This document shows, one piece after another, positions 31,652-50,181 of a stretch of 64,000 nt of DNA. The stretch lies in sequence record PZ386972.1. The stretch is one strand, 5' to 3'. This DNA is from a phage. The translations under genes were made by a program, and so were the position numbers. A model generated the notes under the pieces. That model was given only the letters and a program-made list of their open reading frames with translations, was not told where the DNA came from and did not search any database. Every line of letters begins with the position of its first letter. Within the stretch, counting starts at the first letter, position 1.

Positions 31652-31969
31652 ATGACTTTTCATATTTTGATTGATGATGTGCGTAATCTTCACGGAATGG
31701 ACATTATCATTCGAACCCCAGAAGCCGCTGTAGAGTTTCTGAATAAAACTGATACCACAGGCCACTTCGTTTATATGGATAATGACTTGGCTGTAGATGG
31801 TATGGAAGGTTATCAAATTCTTCGTTTACTATTAGAATTTGGGCAGAGACCAAAGAAAGTGGTACTAGTAACCTCGAACCCAGTAGCTAAGCAAAATATG
31901 CGTAATGATTTGCTTGACTTAGGGTATAAAGAAAATCCCAATCGTGTTGAATATGATTGGCAGGAGTAA
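31652..31969 (+). CDS. hypothetical protein (105 aa)
   Basis: ORF track. Confidence 0.5.
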   Translation: MTFHILIDDVRNLHGMDIIIRTPEAAVEFLNKTDTTGHFVYMDNDLAVDGMEGYQILRLLLEFGQRPKKVVLVTSNPVAKQNMRNDLLDLGYKENPNRVEYDWQE

Positions 31970-32424
31970 AAAGAATGAAGGCAGCTTTGCTTTTAGTAGC
32001 TGCCCTTACCTTCAGCTTTAGTAGTCAGGCATCGCACGATGCAAAAGAAATAGATTGCATTGCTAAAAATATCTATTTCGAGAGTCGTGGTGAGGGCATA
32101 AAGGGAATGACGGCGATAGCACATGTTACTAAAAACCGTGTAAACTCCGGTAAATTCCCAGATTCCTACTGTAAAGTAGTATATCAGTCTAACCAGTTCT
32201 CTTGGGTATCTAAGAGACCAAAAGTTGATAAAACTGATGAGGCTTGGCAAACCGCTAAGAATTTAGCTAGAGTGATATACTACGTTGATTTACCACAAGA
32301 TCCTACACATGGAGCACTATACTTCCATAGTGGTAAAGATAAACCTTACTGGACAAAGAAGTTTAAGAAAACAACTAAGATTAAGGGACATACGTTTTAT
32401 AAACCTGTTGTCACTAAAACTTAA
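31957..32424 (+). CDS. secreted SleB-like cell wall hydrolase (Hydrolase_2 family)
   Basis: 155 aa; signal peptide MKAALLLVAALTFSFSSQA; NIYFESRGE...AHVTKNRV...QSNQFSW matches the SleB signature. Confidence 0.6.
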   Translation: MAGVKRMKAALLLVAALTFSFSSQASHDAKEIDCIAKNIYFESRGEGIKGMTAIAHVTKNRVNSGKFPDSYCKVVYQSNQFSWVSKRPKVDKTDEAWQTAKNLARVIYYVDLPQDPTHGALYFHSGKDKPYWTKKFKKTTKIKGHTFYKPVVTKT

Positions 32425-33105: not shown

Positions 33106-33134
33106 TTGCTAAATACTTATAAATTCTGTATAAT
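33106..33134 (+). promoter_or_regulatory. early promoter driving an ~0.8 kb non-coding transcript
   Basis: TTGCTA 33106-33111, TATAAT 33129-33134. Confidence 0.6.
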
Positions 33135-33357
33135 ATATTCATAAATTAGGGAACAGCGAGCCGATTACGCTGAGTGCAGAATCCCAACCGGAGCGCATTG
33201 AATAGAGTCGGTGGGTTAGTTGTAAAACTAGTACACAGGGGGCGGCAATCCCGGTTAGTGGCTAGAACGTGTAAAATGAGGCGTCTGAAACCTCTCCCCT
33301 AAACTCTTCTCTGATTTATAAATAGTGGGGTGTGGAAATCACTTATGTAGTAACACT

Positions 33358-33429
33358 GCCGTCCTAGTATAATTGGTATTATCAAGCCGTAACTGGTGGA
33401 AGATGTAGGTTCGAATCCTACGGTCGGTA
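33358..33429 (+). ncRNA. tRNA-like element with canonical T-arm but no anticodon arm found by hand
   Basis: T-arm GTAGGTTCGAATCCTAC at 33405-33421; 5' segment GCCGTCC pairs to 3' GGTCGGT with one mismatch. Confidence 0.3.
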
Positions 33430-33931
33430 AGAACTGGATAACTGATGCTTTTAACGTAAAAGCTTCCTAGGTTAGTTGCGCACTGCCTAAACCACGCGGT
33501 AGTTGGTTCCAGACTAACCAACCAGTCTGCTGAATAGTTTTATTACGATTTAACTATGTCCAGGCTAAAGAAGAACTTTAGAAGGTATTCTAGGATAGTG
33601 AAGTTCTTTCTCCATATCGGAGTAGTTTTTCAAGCTATCCACAAAGTGGGAAATGCTGACATGAGAGATGTCACTAATGGTGCACAATAGCACAGGTAAT
33701 TCGCGATAACTCCTGTTGAGTAGCAGCAAAAGGTGGGAAGTCATGACCCCAAGCCTAACCGAGTCCTCAATATACCGCAGGACATAACCACTAAGTCACC
33801 CTGACTTAAACTGGAAAATAATAGACGTTACTGTATTTTGTCTTGAAATACTTAATGAGTGAGACTTATGACTCTCCCGGTATCGTCTGTATTTTTAAGA
33901 GTTTTTACGAGAGTTCTTAAAAATACTTAAA

Positions 33932-34006
33932 CGGGGTGTAGTCTAAGGGAGAGGCAGGAGTCTTCTAAATTCCTTTATGCAGGTTCGAATCCTGTCACCT
34001 CGGCCA
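33932..34006 (+). tRNA. tRNA-Arg (anticodon UCU)
   Basis: Acceptor CGGGGTG/CACCTCG; D-stem; anticodon loop CTTCTAA; T-arm GCAGGTTCGAATCCTGT; encoded CCA. Confidence 0.6.
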
Positions 34007-34040
34007 ATTTTATTAACTGTAACTAAAACAAAGGAAATAT

Positions 34041-34988
34041 ATGTTTAATACTAAAAATATGAAAGAACTGACTTCTGAGCAGAAAGTAATTCGTACTATT
34101 AAACGTTGGGGTATTGGTGCTGTAGTTGGTTTAGCAGGCTTGATTCTAGCCTTTAATTCATATACTATTGTTTCTGATGGTACGGTTAAAACTCAAACAT
34201 TCCTGGGTAAAGTAGATCCTAATCCAGTATTGCCGGGTTTCCATCTTGTAAACCCGTTTGCATCTTTCGATACTTTTAGTACAAAAGATATTGCTGTAAA
34301 ATTAGATAAACTTCAGGTTCCTAGTCAGGATAAGTTTAAATCCACTGTTGACCTGACTGTTATGTTGCAATTTGATGGTTCTAAGGCACCGATTAACCGT
34401 ATTAACGCAGGTACTCAGGATCAGGCACTAGACAAGTATGTAACTGAAAAATTACTGTCTACTATTCGTGAGTTTGGTAAGTCTGTACCTAAAGCACAAG
34501 ATTTGTTTGATGCTAAAATTCAGGCTCAATTGCAAACTGCAATTCAACAGGAAGTTGAAGAGTATGCGCGCCCATATGGTTACACAGTTAAGCAGGTATT
34601 CCTTCAGGATATTACCTTGCCGCCAGTAATCATGGAACAGGTACAGAATACCAAAGTTCGTGAAGAGCAAGTTAATGCTGCGAAAGCTGAACTTGCTCGC
34701 GTTGAACAGGAAGCACAGCAAAAAGTTAAACAAGCAGAAGCAGATCGTGAAGCTCGTAACAACCAAGCTATTGCTAATGAACGTGACGCAGATGCTAAAC
34801 TGTACGCAGCTAAGAAAGAAGCTGAAGCTAACGCCGCATTGCAACGTACCATTACTCCTGAAATGATTCGTTGGAAACAACTGGAAGTTGAAATGATCCG
34901 TGCTCAGAAGTATCAAGGTGGTGTACCTCAGACTGTGGTAGGTACTGGCTACGATGGTCAAATGATCATGGATATGCGTAATAAATAA
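34041..34988 (+). CDS. SPFH/band-7 (stomatin/prohibitin-like) membrane protein
   Basis: 315 aa; N-terminal TM helix; SPFH-like core (GFHLVNPF...); C-terminal Ala/Glu/Lys-rich coiled coil. Confidence 0.55.
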   Translation: MFNTKNMKELTSEQKVIRTIKRWGIGAVVGLAGLILAFNSYTIVSDGTVKTQTFLGKVDPNPVLPGFHLVNPFASFDTFSTKDIAVKLDKLQVPSQDKFKSTVDLTVMLQFDGSKAPINRINAGTQDQALDKYVTEKLLSTIREFGKSVPKAQDLFDAKIQAQLQTAIQQEVEEYARPYGYTVKQVFLQDITLPPVIMEQVQNTKVREEQVNAAKAELARVEQEAQQKVKQAEADREARNNQAIANERDADAKLYAAKKEAEANAALQRTITPEMIRWKQLEVEMIRAQKYQGGVPQTVVGTGYDGQMIMDMRNK

Positions 34989-35013
34989 TACCCGCATGTA
35001 ACATCTGAAGTAA

Positions 35014-35046
35014 GCCCTGCGTTTCCTGGAGAGCGCAGGGCTTTTC
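35014..35046 (+). terminator. rho-independent terminator
   Basis: Hairpin GCCCTGCGTTTCCTGGAGAGCGCAGGGC followed by TTTTCT. Confidence 0.6.
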
Positions 35047-35084
35047 TATATAATGTAATTATAAAACTAACTAGGAGATTAAAC

Positions 35085-35603
35085 ATGGGTGTTGATGAAT
35101 TAACACAGCATCTTCTATCTAGAGGATTTGATGCGGATAAATATCATTGCTGGTTAAGTCCGGAAGGATGGCTAACAGTCCCGTTGTATGATTTCTCTGG
35201 GATGTTGAGGGGCTATCAAACTTATAATCCTTCTGCTCCAAAAGGTCATGGTAAGTGTCCCTTTGAAGCTAAATATTTTACCTATTCTACTACCCAGTGT
35301 GTATGGGGATTAGAAACTCTCAATGGAGATGAAAAAGTAGTATTGATCGCTGAATCTGTATTTAAGGCAGTTGCGTTACATAATGCTGGTTATCCAGCCC
35401 TAGCAATGTTGGGTTCTTCTCCAGGAAAAGCGTTATTAAAGCAACTGAAATTATTACCTTTTAAATTGGTAGCTGTCGGGGATAACGATCCTGCGGGTGA
35501 AAAATTTGCTAGAAAATTAAACGGCTTTGTTTCTCCTGTAGATGTGGATGAGATGTCTACAGAAAACTTGAAAAATTTTCTTGCTATGAAGCTAAATTTC
35601 TAA
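35085..35603 (+). CDS. TOPRIM-like domain protein
   Basis: 172 aa; VVLIAESVFKAVAL...VAVGDNDPAGEKFA resembles a TOPRIM fold. Confidence 0.4.
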   Translation: MGVDELTQHLLSRGFDADKYHCWLSPEGWLTVPLYDFSGMLRGYQTYNPSAPKGHGKCPFEAKYFTYSTTQCVWGLETLNGDEKVVLIAESVFKAVALHNAGYPALAMLGSSPGKALLKQLKLLPFKLVAVGDNDPAGEKFARKLNGFVSPVDVDEMSTENLKNFLAMKLNF

Positions 35604-35719: not shown

Positions 35720-35797
35720 GGTTCTCAAGCTCATATGGTATGAGCACCCGGCTCATAACCGGAAGGTACGTAGGTTCGAATCCTCGGGGAGCCACCA
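35720..35797 (+). tRNA. tRNA with CAU anticodon (Met, fMet or Ile2)
   Basis: Acceptor GGTTCTC/GGGAGCC; D-arm GCTC/GAGC; anticodon loop CTCATAA; weak T-stem; CCA. Confidence 0.5.
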
Positions 35798-49429: not shown

Positions 49430-50181
49430 TGTCAGTATTAGTCGGTTTACATGGTGAAGCTGGTTCGGGAAAAGATACCGTTGCAAAATTAATTATCGAT
49501 TGGTGTAATGACACGTATCCAACGTGTTTATCTCGTCGTTATAGTTTTGCTAAGCCCGTTTATGAACTTGCATCCGTAATCCTCGGTGTAACTCCAGAGT
49601 TTCTAGGAGAGCGCAGGGGGAAAGAGATTGACCAATGGTTTACGGTCACACAATCTCAGTTGGAACGAGCCAGGGATGTGTGGTTTAAGTACGGTATCGA
49701 TAAGTTTGAAGACTTCTCGTACGTTTGGCCTATTTTTGAGGAAAAATATCTTAATCCTCAACAACTTATCTCAGAGAATAAAGAAGACGGACTTTATAGT
49801 TTATTTATTTCTCCGAGAAAAATGTTACAGCTCGTAGGGACAGAGCTAGGAAGGCAGCTGGTGCATGAACGCATTTGGCTCATAATTCTGGAGCAATCCA
49901 TCGCTAAAGACGACCCAGACGTCGCCGTAATAACAGATGTTAGATTCCCCAATGAAGGAGAGCTACTCAGAGAAACAAACCATTTAGATATGGATTCTTT
50001 GATAGTAAATGTAGTACCCGCTGAGCAGAAGTTTACTATTAAATCAGATCATCCATCTGAAAGTGGTATTCCTGCAAAATATATTACCCACGAATTAGTT
50101 AATAAATTCGATGGTATCAATAACCTTAAACTAGAAGTTTATAACTTCTGTGACTTAGAGCTAGAACCACTAGTTGAATAA
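49429..50181 (+). CDS. deoxynucleoside monophosphate kinase-like protein
   Basis: 250 aa; N-terminal P-loop LHGEAGSGKDT as in phage dNMP kinases. Confidence 0.55.
   Translation: MSVLVGLHGEAGSGKDTVAKLIIDWCNDTYPTCLSRRYSFAKPVYELASVILGVTPEFLGERRGKEIDQWFTVTQSQLERARDVWFKYGIDKFEDFSYVWPIFEEKYLNPQQLISENKEDGLYSLFISPRKMLQLVGTELGRQLVHERIWLIILEQSIAKDDPDVAVITDVRFPNEGELLRETNHLDMDSLIVNVVPAEQKFTIKSDHPSESGIPAKYITHELVNKFDGINNLKLEVYNFCDLELEPLVE

What the first reader, a model, noticed from the sequence alone, without database searches (positions are those of the whole stretch)
34041..34988. Phage-encoded SPFH/band-7 membrane protein
The ORF has an N-terminal TM helix, an SPFH-like core and a long Ala/Glu/Lys-rich coiled coil, resembling HflK/C or prohibitin-type scaffolds that regulate membrane proteases such as FtsH. 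It is followed by a strong terminator, so it forms a discrete unit.
Basis: partly seen in the sequence, partly recalled or inferred. Interest (0 to 1): 0.4.

Follow-up and report, generated by a model that had tools for sequence, protein, structure and literature searches.

The report
Phage T5-type SPFH membrane scaffold gene
This is a real but already annotated accessory gene of T5-like phages that encodes a prohibitin/HflC-like membrane scaffold protein; its job during infection has never been tested, and the phage can grow in the laboratory without it.

The parts
33106..33134 (+). Promoter-like site TTGCTA-N17-TATAAT. It is the probable equivalent of T5 promoter P16-17, which drives the RNAX / tRNA-Arg / SPFH unit.
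   Evidence: Consensus scan, 10 of 12 matches. T5 record AY734508 annotates promoter P16-17 at the same relative position. AKFV33 annotates a T5-consensus promoter there. Function is inferred, not shown.
33141..33931 (+). ORF-poor leader homologous to the 719-nt 'RNAX' misc_RNA of T5 (limits approximate). It contains a tRNA-like element at 33358-33429 and a core, 33376-33575, that is 98-100% identical to T5.
   Evidence: T5 annotation, pairwise identity profile, Rfam tRNA hit of 35.5 bits.
33932..34006 (+). tRNA-Arg (anticodon TCT), ending 35 nt before the SPFH start codon.
   Evidence: ARAGORN, Rfam 49.3 bits. Same order in T5, AKFV33 and SP15.
34032..34035 (+). Shine-Dalgarno-like AGGA, five bases before the ATG.
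   Evidence: Read directly from the sequence.
34041..34988 (+). SPFH/Band 7 gene, 315 aa plus stop. Ortholog of T5 T5p078/T5.080, AKFV33 orf077 and SP15 ORF78.
   Evidence: identical to SP15 E0157_078 over the 314 residues aligned.
34107..34175 (+). Codons 23-45: the single N-terminal transmembrane (signal-anchor) helix, preceded by a K/R-rich tail.
   Evidence: Hydropathy and flanking charges. AlphaFold helix 12-39. No cysteine and no lipobox.
34158..34715 (+). Codons 40-225: SPFH1/SPFH2 alpha/beta core, including the invariant VPSQDK.K motif at residues 93-100.
   Evidence: Pfam residues 52-225, model strands and helices 40-192, invariant columns.
34623..34850 (+). Codons 195-270: one 76-residue Ala/Glu/Lys/Gln-rich helix. 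It is the equivalent of the CC1 'wall' helix of SPFH cages.
   Evidence: Model, composition, CC1 definition in PMC12624060.
34857..34985 (+). Codons 273-315: a second helix (273-290, CC2-like) and a conserved C-terminal tail, GGVPxTVVG..Y.G.MIMDMR, with short strands. It would form the cap of a cage. Model confidence here is low.
   Evidence: Model pLDDT 40-47 over the last 25 residues. Conservation in alignment A1.
35012..35049 (+). GC-rich hairpin plus T-rich tail, intrinsic-terminator-like. In T5 the homologous hairpin carries the annotated 'major DNA single-chain interruption', equivalent to window 35032/35033 (GGAGA|GCGC).
   Evidence: AKFV33 annotates it as a terminator.

Best explanation
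The ORF is a genuine accessory gene of a T5-like phage. It encodes a single-pass inner-membrane protein of the SPFH superfamily with the full prohibitin/HflC-type architecture: N-terminal TM anchor, SPFH1-SPFH2, long CC1 helix, CC2 and a C-terminal tail. Shown here: domain identity, fold, single-copy status, position in the early tRNA-rich accessory region, absence from a viable T5 deletion mutant, strong purifying selection, wide spread among virulent phages, and absence of lipoprotein or protease features. Inferred: like every structurally solved full-length SPFH protein, it assembles into a ring or cage that encloses a patch of membrane. Here the assembly would be homo-oligomeric, because there is no paralog. 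The positive charges before the TM helix suggest the bulk faces the periplasm, as in HflK/C and prohibitin, but this is tentative. The most likely role is host membrane remodelling or takeover early in infection. The protein would corral or shield inner-membrane proteins, FtsH-type quality-control machinery being the best precedent. That would help in natural hosts but is not needed on laboratory E. coli. It is transcribed from the promoter upstream of the RNAX-like leader, together with tRNA-Arg, and transcription stops at the hairpin at 35012-35043.
For: Identity and fold:
- Pfam Band_7, E=2e-17, above the gathering score.
- AlphaFold model with pLDDT 76.7 and elements TM 12-39, SPFH 40-192, helix 195-270 and helix 273-290.
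- Foldseek PDB: erlin 6.9e-14, PHB 2.7e-12, HflK/C about 1e-10, QmcA 1e-9, with 260-305 aligned columns.
- The architecture matches the published definition of cage-forming SPFH proteins (PMC12624060).

Single copy: no second SPFH ORF in the 64-kb window.

Topology hint: N-flank net +4 against C-flank +1 here, and 27 of 29 members of the phage-clade alignment have at least 2 K/R before the TM.

Transcription unit: T5 annotation, scans, hairpin energy.

Dispensability:
- T5 st0 (AY692264) joins T5p066 to T5p079 and lacks T5p067-078.
- T5n and SP15m, each with an ~8-kb deletion in the tRNA-rich region, are viable (PMC11555353).
- A natural remnant holding only residues 274-315 exists in phage NG_S8 (H85).

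Constraint: 61 synonymous and 2 non-synonymous differences against T5. 58 invariant columns across 29 sequences that go down to 56% identity.

Action on host rather than phage partners:
- The same subfamily occurs in Demerecviridae and in three genera of T4-like Straboviridae.
- It also occurs as a lone gene in non-prophage chromosomal contexts in Morganella, Providencia and methylotrophs.
Against: - No experiment addresses this protein. Literature searches found only annotations.
- Oligomerisation could not be modelled with the tools available.
- The C-terminal 'cap' region is modelled at low confidence.
- The charge bias that suggests a periplasmic orientation disappears in the cellular clade: N>C in 20 and N<C in 19 of 53 sequences. 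No dedicated topology predictor was available.
- The best sequence match in the PDB is QmcA, which faces the cytoplasm.
- Nothing links the protein to FtsH. HflK and HflC are not found by sequence, and no conserved protease, NfeD or HflC-like neighbour exists.
- Early timing is inferred from gene position and from T5 promoter annotation, not measured.
Confidence: 0.6

Rival explanations
1. Direct HflK/C mimic. The phage protein builds a periplasmic cage around host FtsH, or competes with HflK/C for it. That would change FtsH access to membrane substrates during infection, for example by stabilising phage or host membrane proteins.
Against: There is no sequence-level match to HflK or HflC at E<=1, whereas QmcA and the prohibitins are found. 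It is a single gene rather than a heteropair. It lacks a long cytoplasmic N-terminal extension like that of HflK (own knowledge). No FtsH-related gene is conserved near any homolog. The orientation is unproven. T5 is strictly lytic, so the classical HflKC/FtsH phage target, lambda CII, has no counterpart here (own knowledge).
Confidence: 0.2
2. Counter-defence factor. The protein neutralises a membrane-embedded or envelope-sensing host defence, for example by caging a pore-forming effector or masking envelope perturbation. It would be one more member of the 'anti-defence island' in the T5 tRNA region.
For: The gene lies in the ~8-kb tRNA-rich region that the authors' preprint calls an anti-defence island. 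That region holds tRNA-Tyr, ORF71-73 and Rad (ORF75), all of which rescue phages from retrons. Rad is the very next gene in this window, 99% identical. The preprint reports lower plating efficiency of T5n on AVAST2, with no factor identified. In T4-like phages the gene sits in a plastic accessory slot next to an NMNAT/Nudix gene, the enzyme class used by the NARP2 counter-defence pathway. Being dispensable on laboratory strains yet strongly conserved is typical of counter-defence genes.
Against: This is guilt by association only. Of the nine fragments tested, only F6, F7 and F8 rescued from retrons. I could not establish whether a fragment containing ORF78 was among the nine. A scaffold with a conserved cellular clade in housekeeping contexts, and retention as a lone chromosomal gene in Morganellaceae, fits a general membrane function better than a specific inhibitor. 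No known anti-defence protein has this fold, to my knowledge.
Confidence: 0.15
3. Modulator of envelope integrity or lysis timing. It would act with periplasmic lysis-related proteins such as antiholin, holin or the secreted SleB-type hydrolase.
For: In Slopekvirus and Pseudotevenvirus the order is tk, rI (Pfam Antiholin, E about 1e-26), rI.-1, then the SPFH gene. In T5-like contigs a Hydrolase_2 (SleB-type) gene lies within about 2 kb.
Against: The adjacency can be explained by conserved synteny within each phage family. In Aeromonas phage 31 the upstream gene is not detectably an antiholin. The T5 holin and endolysin genes lie elsewhere (PMC3326045).
Confidence: 0.08
4. The public annotations are correct: it is a lipoprotein (PHROG 200 and RefSeq 'lipoprotein') or a membrane protease (AY734508 'putative membrane protease').
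For: PHROG 200 'lipoprotein', E=1.7e-86. Many RefSeq records use that name. The T5 record says 'putative membrane protease'.
Against: The protein has no cysteine at all, so there is no lipobox and no lipidation site. 25 of 29 family members also lack cysteine. The only significant Pfam domain is Band_7. The 'protease' PHROG hit is marginal, E=0.001, and falls on the coiled-coil segment. The 'protease' label comes from the name of COG0330, 'membrane protease subunits, stomatin/prohibitin homologs'. SPFH proteins are not peptidases (established knowledge).
Confidence: 0.02

Closest known systems
T5 gene T5p078 / T5.080 (YP_006908.1), AKFV33 orf077, PhiSP15 ORF78 (E0157_078)
   Same: It is the same gene: 99.4% (T5) to 100% (SP15, SE8, ESCO40) protein identity and the same flanks, tRNA-Arg upstream and the hairpin downstream. 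The T5 record already notes PF01145 and COG0330.
   Different: Nothing of substance. In T5 the hairpin is followed by three reverse-strand genes (T5p075-077) and the bidirectional terminator ter1. These are absent here, so the Toprim/rad gene follows directly.
Prohibitin (PHB1/2) and erlin (1/2) cages
   Different: They are eukaryotic organellar hetero-oligomers of two paralogs, whereas this is a single phage gene. Identity is 15-20%. Erlin's CC1 is 101 residues long, against 76 here.
E. coli HflK/HflC, the modulators of FtsH
   Different: Not detectable by sequence at E<=1. HflK/C is an obligate heteropair encoded by adjacent genes, whereas here there is one gene. No evidence of FtsH binding.
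E. coli QmcA (with its NfeD partner YbbJ)
   Same: It is the best sequence match among solved structures, E=1.8e-6 for the single sequence and 5.9e-7 for the profile. Like QmcA, it would be homo-oligomeric, being a single SPFH gene.
   Different: QmcA faces the cytoplasm and is encoded next to an NfeD gene (PMC10434171). Here the N-tail charges suggest the opposite orientation, and the neighbours are a tRNA and a Toprim gene, not NfeD. Much of the sequence score comes from the Ala/Glu-rich helix.
SPFH/Band 7 ORFs of T4-like phages (RB43 ORF139c, 44RR ORF098c, Aeromonas phage 31 ORF098c, Klebsiella phages Miro and Matisse, Cronobacter GAP161)
   Same: They belong to the same subfamily, at 60-78% identity over more than 88% of the length. 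They were listed as SPFH/Band 7 in 2006 (PMC1524935). Their function is also unknown.
   Different: They sit in a different genomic slot, tk, rI, rI.-1, SPFH, NMNAT/Nudix, in a different phage family.

Membership tests
SPFH / Band 7 superfamily (PF01145) | Significant match to the Band_7 profile above Pfam's gathering score | tested here: met
   E=2e-17, 64.2 bits against 23.6, residues 52-225. Precomputed PF01145 on essentially all homologs.
SPFH / Band 7 superfamily (PF01145) | SPFH alpha/beta fold | tested here: met
Cage-forming membrane SPFH proteins (HflK/C, prohibitin, erlin, stomatin, QmcA, flotillin) | N-terminal membrane anchor followed by SPFH1-SPFH2, a long CC1 helix, CC2 and a C-terminal segment | tested here: met
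   Model elements TM 12-39, SPFH 40-192, helix 195-270, helix 273-290 and a short C-terminal strand region. Full-length alignments to these families. Definition taken from PMC12624060. The C-terminal 25 residues are low confidence.
Cage-forming membrane SPFH proteins (HflK/C, prohibitin, erlin, stomatin, QmcA, flotillin) | Assembly into a closed ring or cage of many subunits on a membrane | not testable with these tools
   Only single-chain prediction was available. Needs multimer modelling or cryo-EM.
HflK/HflC (FtsH modulators) | Sequence-level relationship to HflK or HflC | tested here: not met
   Neither a phmmer nor a profile search of all PDB chains returns HflK or HflC at E<=1, although 7WI3, 7VHP and 9CZ2 are in the library (they appear in the fold search). 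QmcA and prohibitins are returned.
HflK/HflC (FtsH modulators) | Two adjacent paralogous genes forming a heterodimer | tested here: not met
   A profile search of the six-frame translation of the whole 64-kb window finds only this ORF. The flanks are tRNA-Arg and a Toprim gene.
HflK/HflC (FtsH modulators) | Periplasm-facing orientation (N-in, C-out) | tested here: inconclusive
   The positive-inside rule favours N-in for this protein (+4 against +1) and for most of the phage clade. It is ambiguous in the cellular clade. No topology predictor or experiment was available.
HflK/HflC (FtsH modulators) | Physical association with FtsH and modulation of its proteolysis | not testable with these tools
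   No computational proxy. No ftsH or protease gene is conserved near homologs.
QmcA/YqiK-type (flotillin-like) SPFH with NfeD partner | Adjacent NfeD-family gene | tested here: not met
   The nearest Pfam-scanned ORFs on either side are a YqeY-like ORF with no Pfam hit and Hydrolase_2 upstream, and Toprim_2 downstream. No NfeD was found. No conserved NfeD-like neighbour in 60 cellular loci. Reference: PMC10434171.
Bacterial lipoprotein (the label attached to PHROG 200 and RefSeq records) | Lipobox with an invariant cysteine at the signal peptidase II site | tested here: not met
   Zero cysteines in the 315 residues. 25 of 29 family members have none.
Membrane protease (the label in AY734508) | A peptidase domain or catalytic motif | tested here: not met
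   Band_7 is the only significant Pfam hit. No NCBIfam hit. The label derives from the name of COG0330.
Known anti-phage defence system components (PADLOC) | Match to a PADLOC model | tested here: not met
   No hit at E<=0.1.

The most novel reading that the evidence does not exclude
The T5-type SPFH protein is an active host-takeover or counter-defence device. It would form a homo-oligomeric cage on the inner membrane that sequesters a specific host machine, either FtsH or a membrane-embedded defence sensor or effector. It would belong functionally to the anti-defence island that also holds rad and the protective tRNAs. The same phage-clade gene has been captured as a stand-alone chromosomal gene by Morganella and Providencia. 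That would make it the first virus-encoded SPFH cage with a defined target.
Probability: 0.15. Interest if true: 0.65.

Novelty: already known. Interest (0 to 1): 0.27.

Why it matters
As a finding it adds little. The gene and its Band 7 domain are already annotated in the GenBank record of the T5 st0-deleted segment (AY734508), and identical proteins sit in hundreds of phage records.

What is worth keeping:
1. Two widely propagated names, 'lipoprotein' and 'membrane protease', are wrong for this family.
2. A strongly conserved, laboratory-dispensable SPFH scaffold is shared by T5-like and T4-like virulent phages, and in T5-like phages it sits next to proven counter-defence genes. That makes it a cheap and reasonable candidate for a knockout and defence-panel screen.
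3. SPFH cages are currently a very active structural topic. A small, single-gene, homo-oligomeric phage version would be a convenient model if it does form a cage.

If it turned out to cage FtsH or a defence effector, it would be a new viral strategy. Nothing here shows that.

Tried and rejected
- Lipoprotein reading: rejected, no cysteine.
- Protease reading: rejected, no peptidase domain.
- Defence-system component: no PADLOC hit.
- NCBIfam: no hit, so no curated subfamily name.
- Literature: searches for T5.080, T5 plus SPFH, phage-encoded SPFH, and phage/SPFH/FtsH/HflK found only annotation tables and no functional study. A search for T5st0 found nothing. The st0 deletion was instead verified from GenBank records.
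- Conserved partners near cellular homologs: clustering neighbours in 60 loci found no FtsH, NfeD or HflC-like partner, only lineage-specific housekeeping synteny.
- Topology from flanking charges: clear for the phage clade, uninformative for the cellular clade.
- rI (antiholin) adjacency as a functional clue: it holds in two T4-like genera but not in Aeromonas phage 31, so it was treated as synteny.
- AFDB fold search: the library was unavailable.
- Whether the retron-rescue screen of Azam et al. included a fragment carrying ORF78: this could not be established from the text.
- Multimer modelling and docking to FtsH: not possible with the single-chain predictor.
Full report
OBSERVATION

An AGGA lies five bases upstream of the ATG.

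The protein has one hydrophobic segment, about residues 23-45, preceded by a Lys/Arg-rich tail (6 K/R and 2 D/E in residues 1-22). Residues 205-275 are dominated by Ala, Glu, Lys, Gln and Arg. There is no cysteine anywhere.

Pfam Band_7 (PF01145) matches residues 52-225 at E=2e-17, 64.2 bits against a gathering score of 23.6.

The downstream hairpin at 35012-35043 has a 13-bp stem (7 G-C pairs), a 6-nt loop and a TTTTCT tail. It folds at -23.6 kcal/mol, z = -3.7 against shuffles.

WHAT THE WINDOW IS

The window carries ARAGORN's 22 tRNA genes on one strand and is 95-97% identical to T5-like phages such as AKFV33. It is a Tequintavirus (Demerecviridae) genome segment.

The ORF is the ortholog of AKFV33 orf077 and T5 T5.080, of T5p078 in record AY734508, and of PhiSP15 E0157_078 (identical over the 314 residues aligned).

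The T5 record already notes 'contains band 7 family protein (PF01145); membrane protease subunits, stomatin/prohibitin homologs (COG0330)'. tblastn finds relatives in 726 phage records:
- About 430 T5-like phages at 90% identity or more.
- T4-like Straboviridae of Klebsiella, Cronobacter, Enterobacter, Raoultella and Pantoea, and RB43, at 73-78%.
- Aeromonas T4-like phages at about 61-64%.
- Vibrio phages at 31-41%.

SPFH/Band 7 ORFs in RB43, 44RR and Aeh1 were tabulated as early as 2006 (PMC1524935). The finding is therefore real but already known as an annotation. I found no functional study.

STRUCTURE AND FAMILY PLACEMENT

An AlphaFold2 model built from a 29-sequence alignment has mean pLDDT 76.7. 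Its elements are:
- a TM helix, residues 12-39;
- an alpha/beta core, 40-192;
- one uninterrupted 76-residue helix, 195-270;
- a second helix, 273-290;
- a low-confidence C-terminal tail with short strands.

This is the TM, SPFH1, SPFH2, CC1, CC2, CT order that defines cage-forming SPFH proteins (PMC12624060).

Foldseek against the PDB aligns 260-305 columns. It returns erlin1/2 (6.9e-14), prohibitin (2.7e-12), stomatin, HflK/C (about 1e-10), QmcA (1e-9), flotillin and the major vault protein.

By sequence the solved relatives found are QmcA (1.8e-6; profile 5.9e-7) and the prohibitins (about 1e-4). HflK and HflC are not found at E<=1. The protein is therefore a member of the SPFH superfamily with a prohibitin/HflC-like architecture, but it is not an HflK or HflC ortholog.

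The window holds no second SPFH gene. Any ring would have to be homo-oligomeric, as in stomatin or QmcA. The flanking genes include no NfeD partner.

WRONG PUBLIC LABELS

PHROG 200 and many RefSeq records call this family 'lipoprotein'. The protein has no cysteine, and 25 of 29 diverse relatives have none either, so there is no lipobox.

'Putative membrane protease' echoes the name of COG0330. No peptidase domain is present.

TOPOLOGY

The net charge is +4 before the TM helix and +1 after it. In the 29-sequence phage-clade alignment, 27 members have at least 2 K/R before the TM.

By the positive-inside rule this predicts N-in/C-out. The SPFH body would then lie in the periplasm, as reported for HflK/HflC and opposite to QmcA and YqiK (PMC10434171).

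The bias vanishes in the cellular relatives: N>C in 20 and N<C in 19 of 53. I therefore regard the orientation as tentative.

TRANSCRIPTION UNIT

tRNA-Arg(TCT) ends 35 nt before the ATG, and no promoter-like site lies between them. The nearest upstream promoter-like site is TTGCTA-N17-TATAAT at 33106-33134.

In T5 the annotated order is promoter P16-17, a 719-nt 'RNAX', tRNA-Arg, T5p078, a 'major DNA single-chain interruption', then terminator ter1. The window has the same order. Its hairpin is nearly identical to the T5 sequence that carries the nick (alignment A2).

The gene is therefore the last element of a composite RNA and protein unit, not a unit by itself.

In T5 three reverse-strand genes and ter1 follow the hairpin. 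Here they are absent and a Toprim gene follows directly.

DISPENSABLE BUT CONSTRAINED

AY734508 is the segment missing from the viable T5 st0 deletion mutant. In the st0 genome (AY692264) T5p066 is fused to T5p079 at the recombination site, so T5p067-T5p078 are gone.

Independent ~8-kb deletions of the tRNA-rich region exist in T5n and SP15m, and both phages are viable on laboratory E. coli (PMC11555353). One T5-like record, NG_S8, retains only the last 42 codons (H85).

Yet against T5 the gene shows 61 synonymous and only 2 non-synonymous codon differences. Fifty-eight alignment columns are invariant across sequences that go down to 56% identity. It is a selected accessory function.

GENOMIC COMPANY

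The next gene, 35085-35603 (Toprim_2), is 99% identical to PhiSP15 ORF75. ORF75 was named Rad, for retron anti-defence, and was reported to rescue phages from several retrons.

The same ~8-kb region also carries the tRNA-Tyr that counters retron-Eco7/PtuAB and ORF71-73, which act against Ec83. The preprint calls the region an anti-defence island and notes an unidentified anti-AVAST2 activity in T5.

In T4-like phages the SPFH gene occupies a plastic slot: tk, rI (Pfam Antiholin), rI.-1 (DUF5856), SPFH, then a CTP_transf_like+NUDIX gene annotated as NMNAT/Nudix. That is the enzyme class of the NARP2 counter-defence pathway. I did not test orthology.

This is guilt by association only. Only fragments F6-F8 rescued from retrons, and I could not determine whether ORF78 was on a tested fragment.

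CELLULAR RELATIVES

A profile search of 1.84 billion cluster representatives finds 1,954 clusters at E<=1e-3 and 340 at E<=1e-10. This is a modest, distinct subfamily.

A scan of one genome per prokaryotic species finds 61 loci:
- Morganella and Providencia chromosomes, at 57-59% identity.
- Methylococcaceae, Methylophagaceae, other gammaproteobacterial MAGs and Desulfocapsaceae MAGs, at 31-41% identity.

The contexts are not prophages:
- trpFBA, accD, folC, then the SPFH gene, then an FAD oxidoreductase, in Methylophagaceae.
- Decarboxylase, permease, TetR, ADH, then SPFH, then HlyD and a C39-ABC exporter, in M. morganii.
- A chaperone-usher fimbrial operon in other Morganella.
- LysR and a racemase, then SPFH, then 2-thiouracil desulfurase, in Providencia.

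That gives three different Morganellaceae contexts. No FtsH, NfeD or second SPFH gene is a conserved neighbour.

In an NJ tree the methylotroph-type sequences form a deep cellular clade. The Morganellaceae copies nest inside the phage clade, at 79-81% identity to P0113 and P0093. P0113 and P0100 lie in T5-like synteny, and P0093 and P0106 lie on phage-like contigs. The parsimonious reading is capture of a phage gene by the host lineage. This rests on a distance tree without support values.

Retention as a lone chromosomal gene suggests that the protein works on conserved cellular components rather than on phage-specific partners.

MECHANISM: SHOWN AND INFERRED

Shown:
- SPFH identity and full cage-type architecture;
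- a single gene;
- a membrane anchor;
- location in the early accessory region;
- dispensability together with purifying selection;
- spread across phage families and into host chromosomes.

Inferred:
- The protein forms a homo-oligomeric ring or cage on the inner membrane, probably on the periplasmic face.
- The cage isolates a membrane patch or its resident proteins early in infection.

The best-precedented client is FtsH-type quality-control machinery, by analogy with HflK/C and prohibitin. Nothing here tests that, and I give the specific FtsH-mimic model about 0.2. A counter-defence role is an attractive alternative, at about 0.15, because of the neighbourhood. A role in lysis timing is less likely.

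VERDICT

The gene and its domain are already annotated in T5 and in hundreds of phage genomes, so novelty is 'already known' and interest is low to moderate.

The useful by-products are the correction of the 'lipoprotein' and 'protease' labels, the evidence of dispensability under constraint, the anti-defence neighbourhood, and the apparent phage-to-Morganellaceae transfer.

Noticed in passing
window 35085-35603 (+): The 172-aa Toprim ORF right after the SPFH hairpin is 99% identical (170/172) to PhiSP15 ORF75. ORF75 was named 'Rad' and reported to rescue T5-like phages from several retrons. RefSeq records call it 'DNA primase'.
   Followed up: partly
window 35021-35040 and 49599-49618 (+): The T5 record places a 'major DNA single-chain interruption' at the position equivalent to window 35032/35033 (GGAGA|GCGC), inside the 3' arm of the hairpin. 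The exact 11-mer GGAGAGCGCAG recurs at 49606-49616, within an 18/20 match (GTTTCCTGGAGAGCGCAGGG against GTTTCTAGGAGAGCGCAGGG). This is probably a second T5-type nick site on the same strand, and it is not in a hairpin.
   Followed up: partly
window 33141-33931 (+): An ORF-poor ~800-nt stretch corresponds to the 719-nt 'RNAX' misc_RNA annotated in T5. Its core, 33376-33575, is 98-100% identical to T5, more conserved than the neighbouring coding gene (93%), while its flanks carry indels. Rfam finds a tRNA-like element at 33358-33429 (35.5 bits) that ARAGORN does not call. AKFV33 annotates a small ORF, orf078, here instead.
   Followed up: partly
window 35720-35794 (+): Rfam calls a tRNA here (40.3 bits) that ARAGORN missed. 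AKFV33 annotates tRNA-Met at this position and T5 annotates tRNA-Ile.
   Followed up: no
L006-L018 (Morganella and Providencia chromosomes): Stand-alone chromosomal copies of the phage-clade SPFH gene are 88-98% identical to each other and 79-81% identical to proteins on divergent T5-like or phage-like contigs. They sit in three different non-prophage contexts and nest inside the phage clade in an NJ tree. This suggests capture of a phage gene by the host lineage.
   Followed up: partly
window 31957-32424 (+): An early-region SleB-type cell-wall hydrolase (Pfam Hydrolase_2, E=2.4e-25) has an apparent N-terminal signal peptide (MKAALLLVAALTFSFSSQA|SH). It is distinct from the phage's holin and endolysin pair. 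A Hydrolase_2 gene recurs within about 2 kb of the SPFH gene on several phage contigs.
   Followed up: no
window 35044-35084, compared with T5 L004 2169-4091: Relative to T5, the window lacks the bidirectional terminator ter1 and the three reverse-strand genes T5p075-077 that lie between the SPFH hairpin and the Toprim/rad gene. AKFV33 has the same shorter arrangement.
   Followed up: no
L002 (Klebsiella phage Miro), L075 (Cronobacter phage GAP161), L074 (Aeromonas phage 31): In T4-like phages the SPFH gene occupies a conserved slot downstream of tk. In Slopekvirus and Pseudotevenvirus the order is tk, rI antiholin, rI.-1 (DUF5856), SPFH, then a bifunctional NMNAT/Nudix gene. In Aeromonas phage 31 it is followed by a small protein with a pilin-type N-methylation motif and a DUF1190 protein.
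   Followed up: partly
hit H85 (E. coli phage NG_S8, LC788711.1): A T5-like phage retains only the last 42 codons (residues 274-315) of the SPFH gene. This is a natural deletion remnant and fits with the gene being dispensable.
   Followed up: no
PHROG 200 and RefSeq annotations of this family: The label 'lipoprotein' is propagated across many phage records for a protein family that mostly lacks any cysteine. Another label, 'putative membrane protease', derives from the name of COG0330. Both are annotation artefacts.
   Followed up: yes
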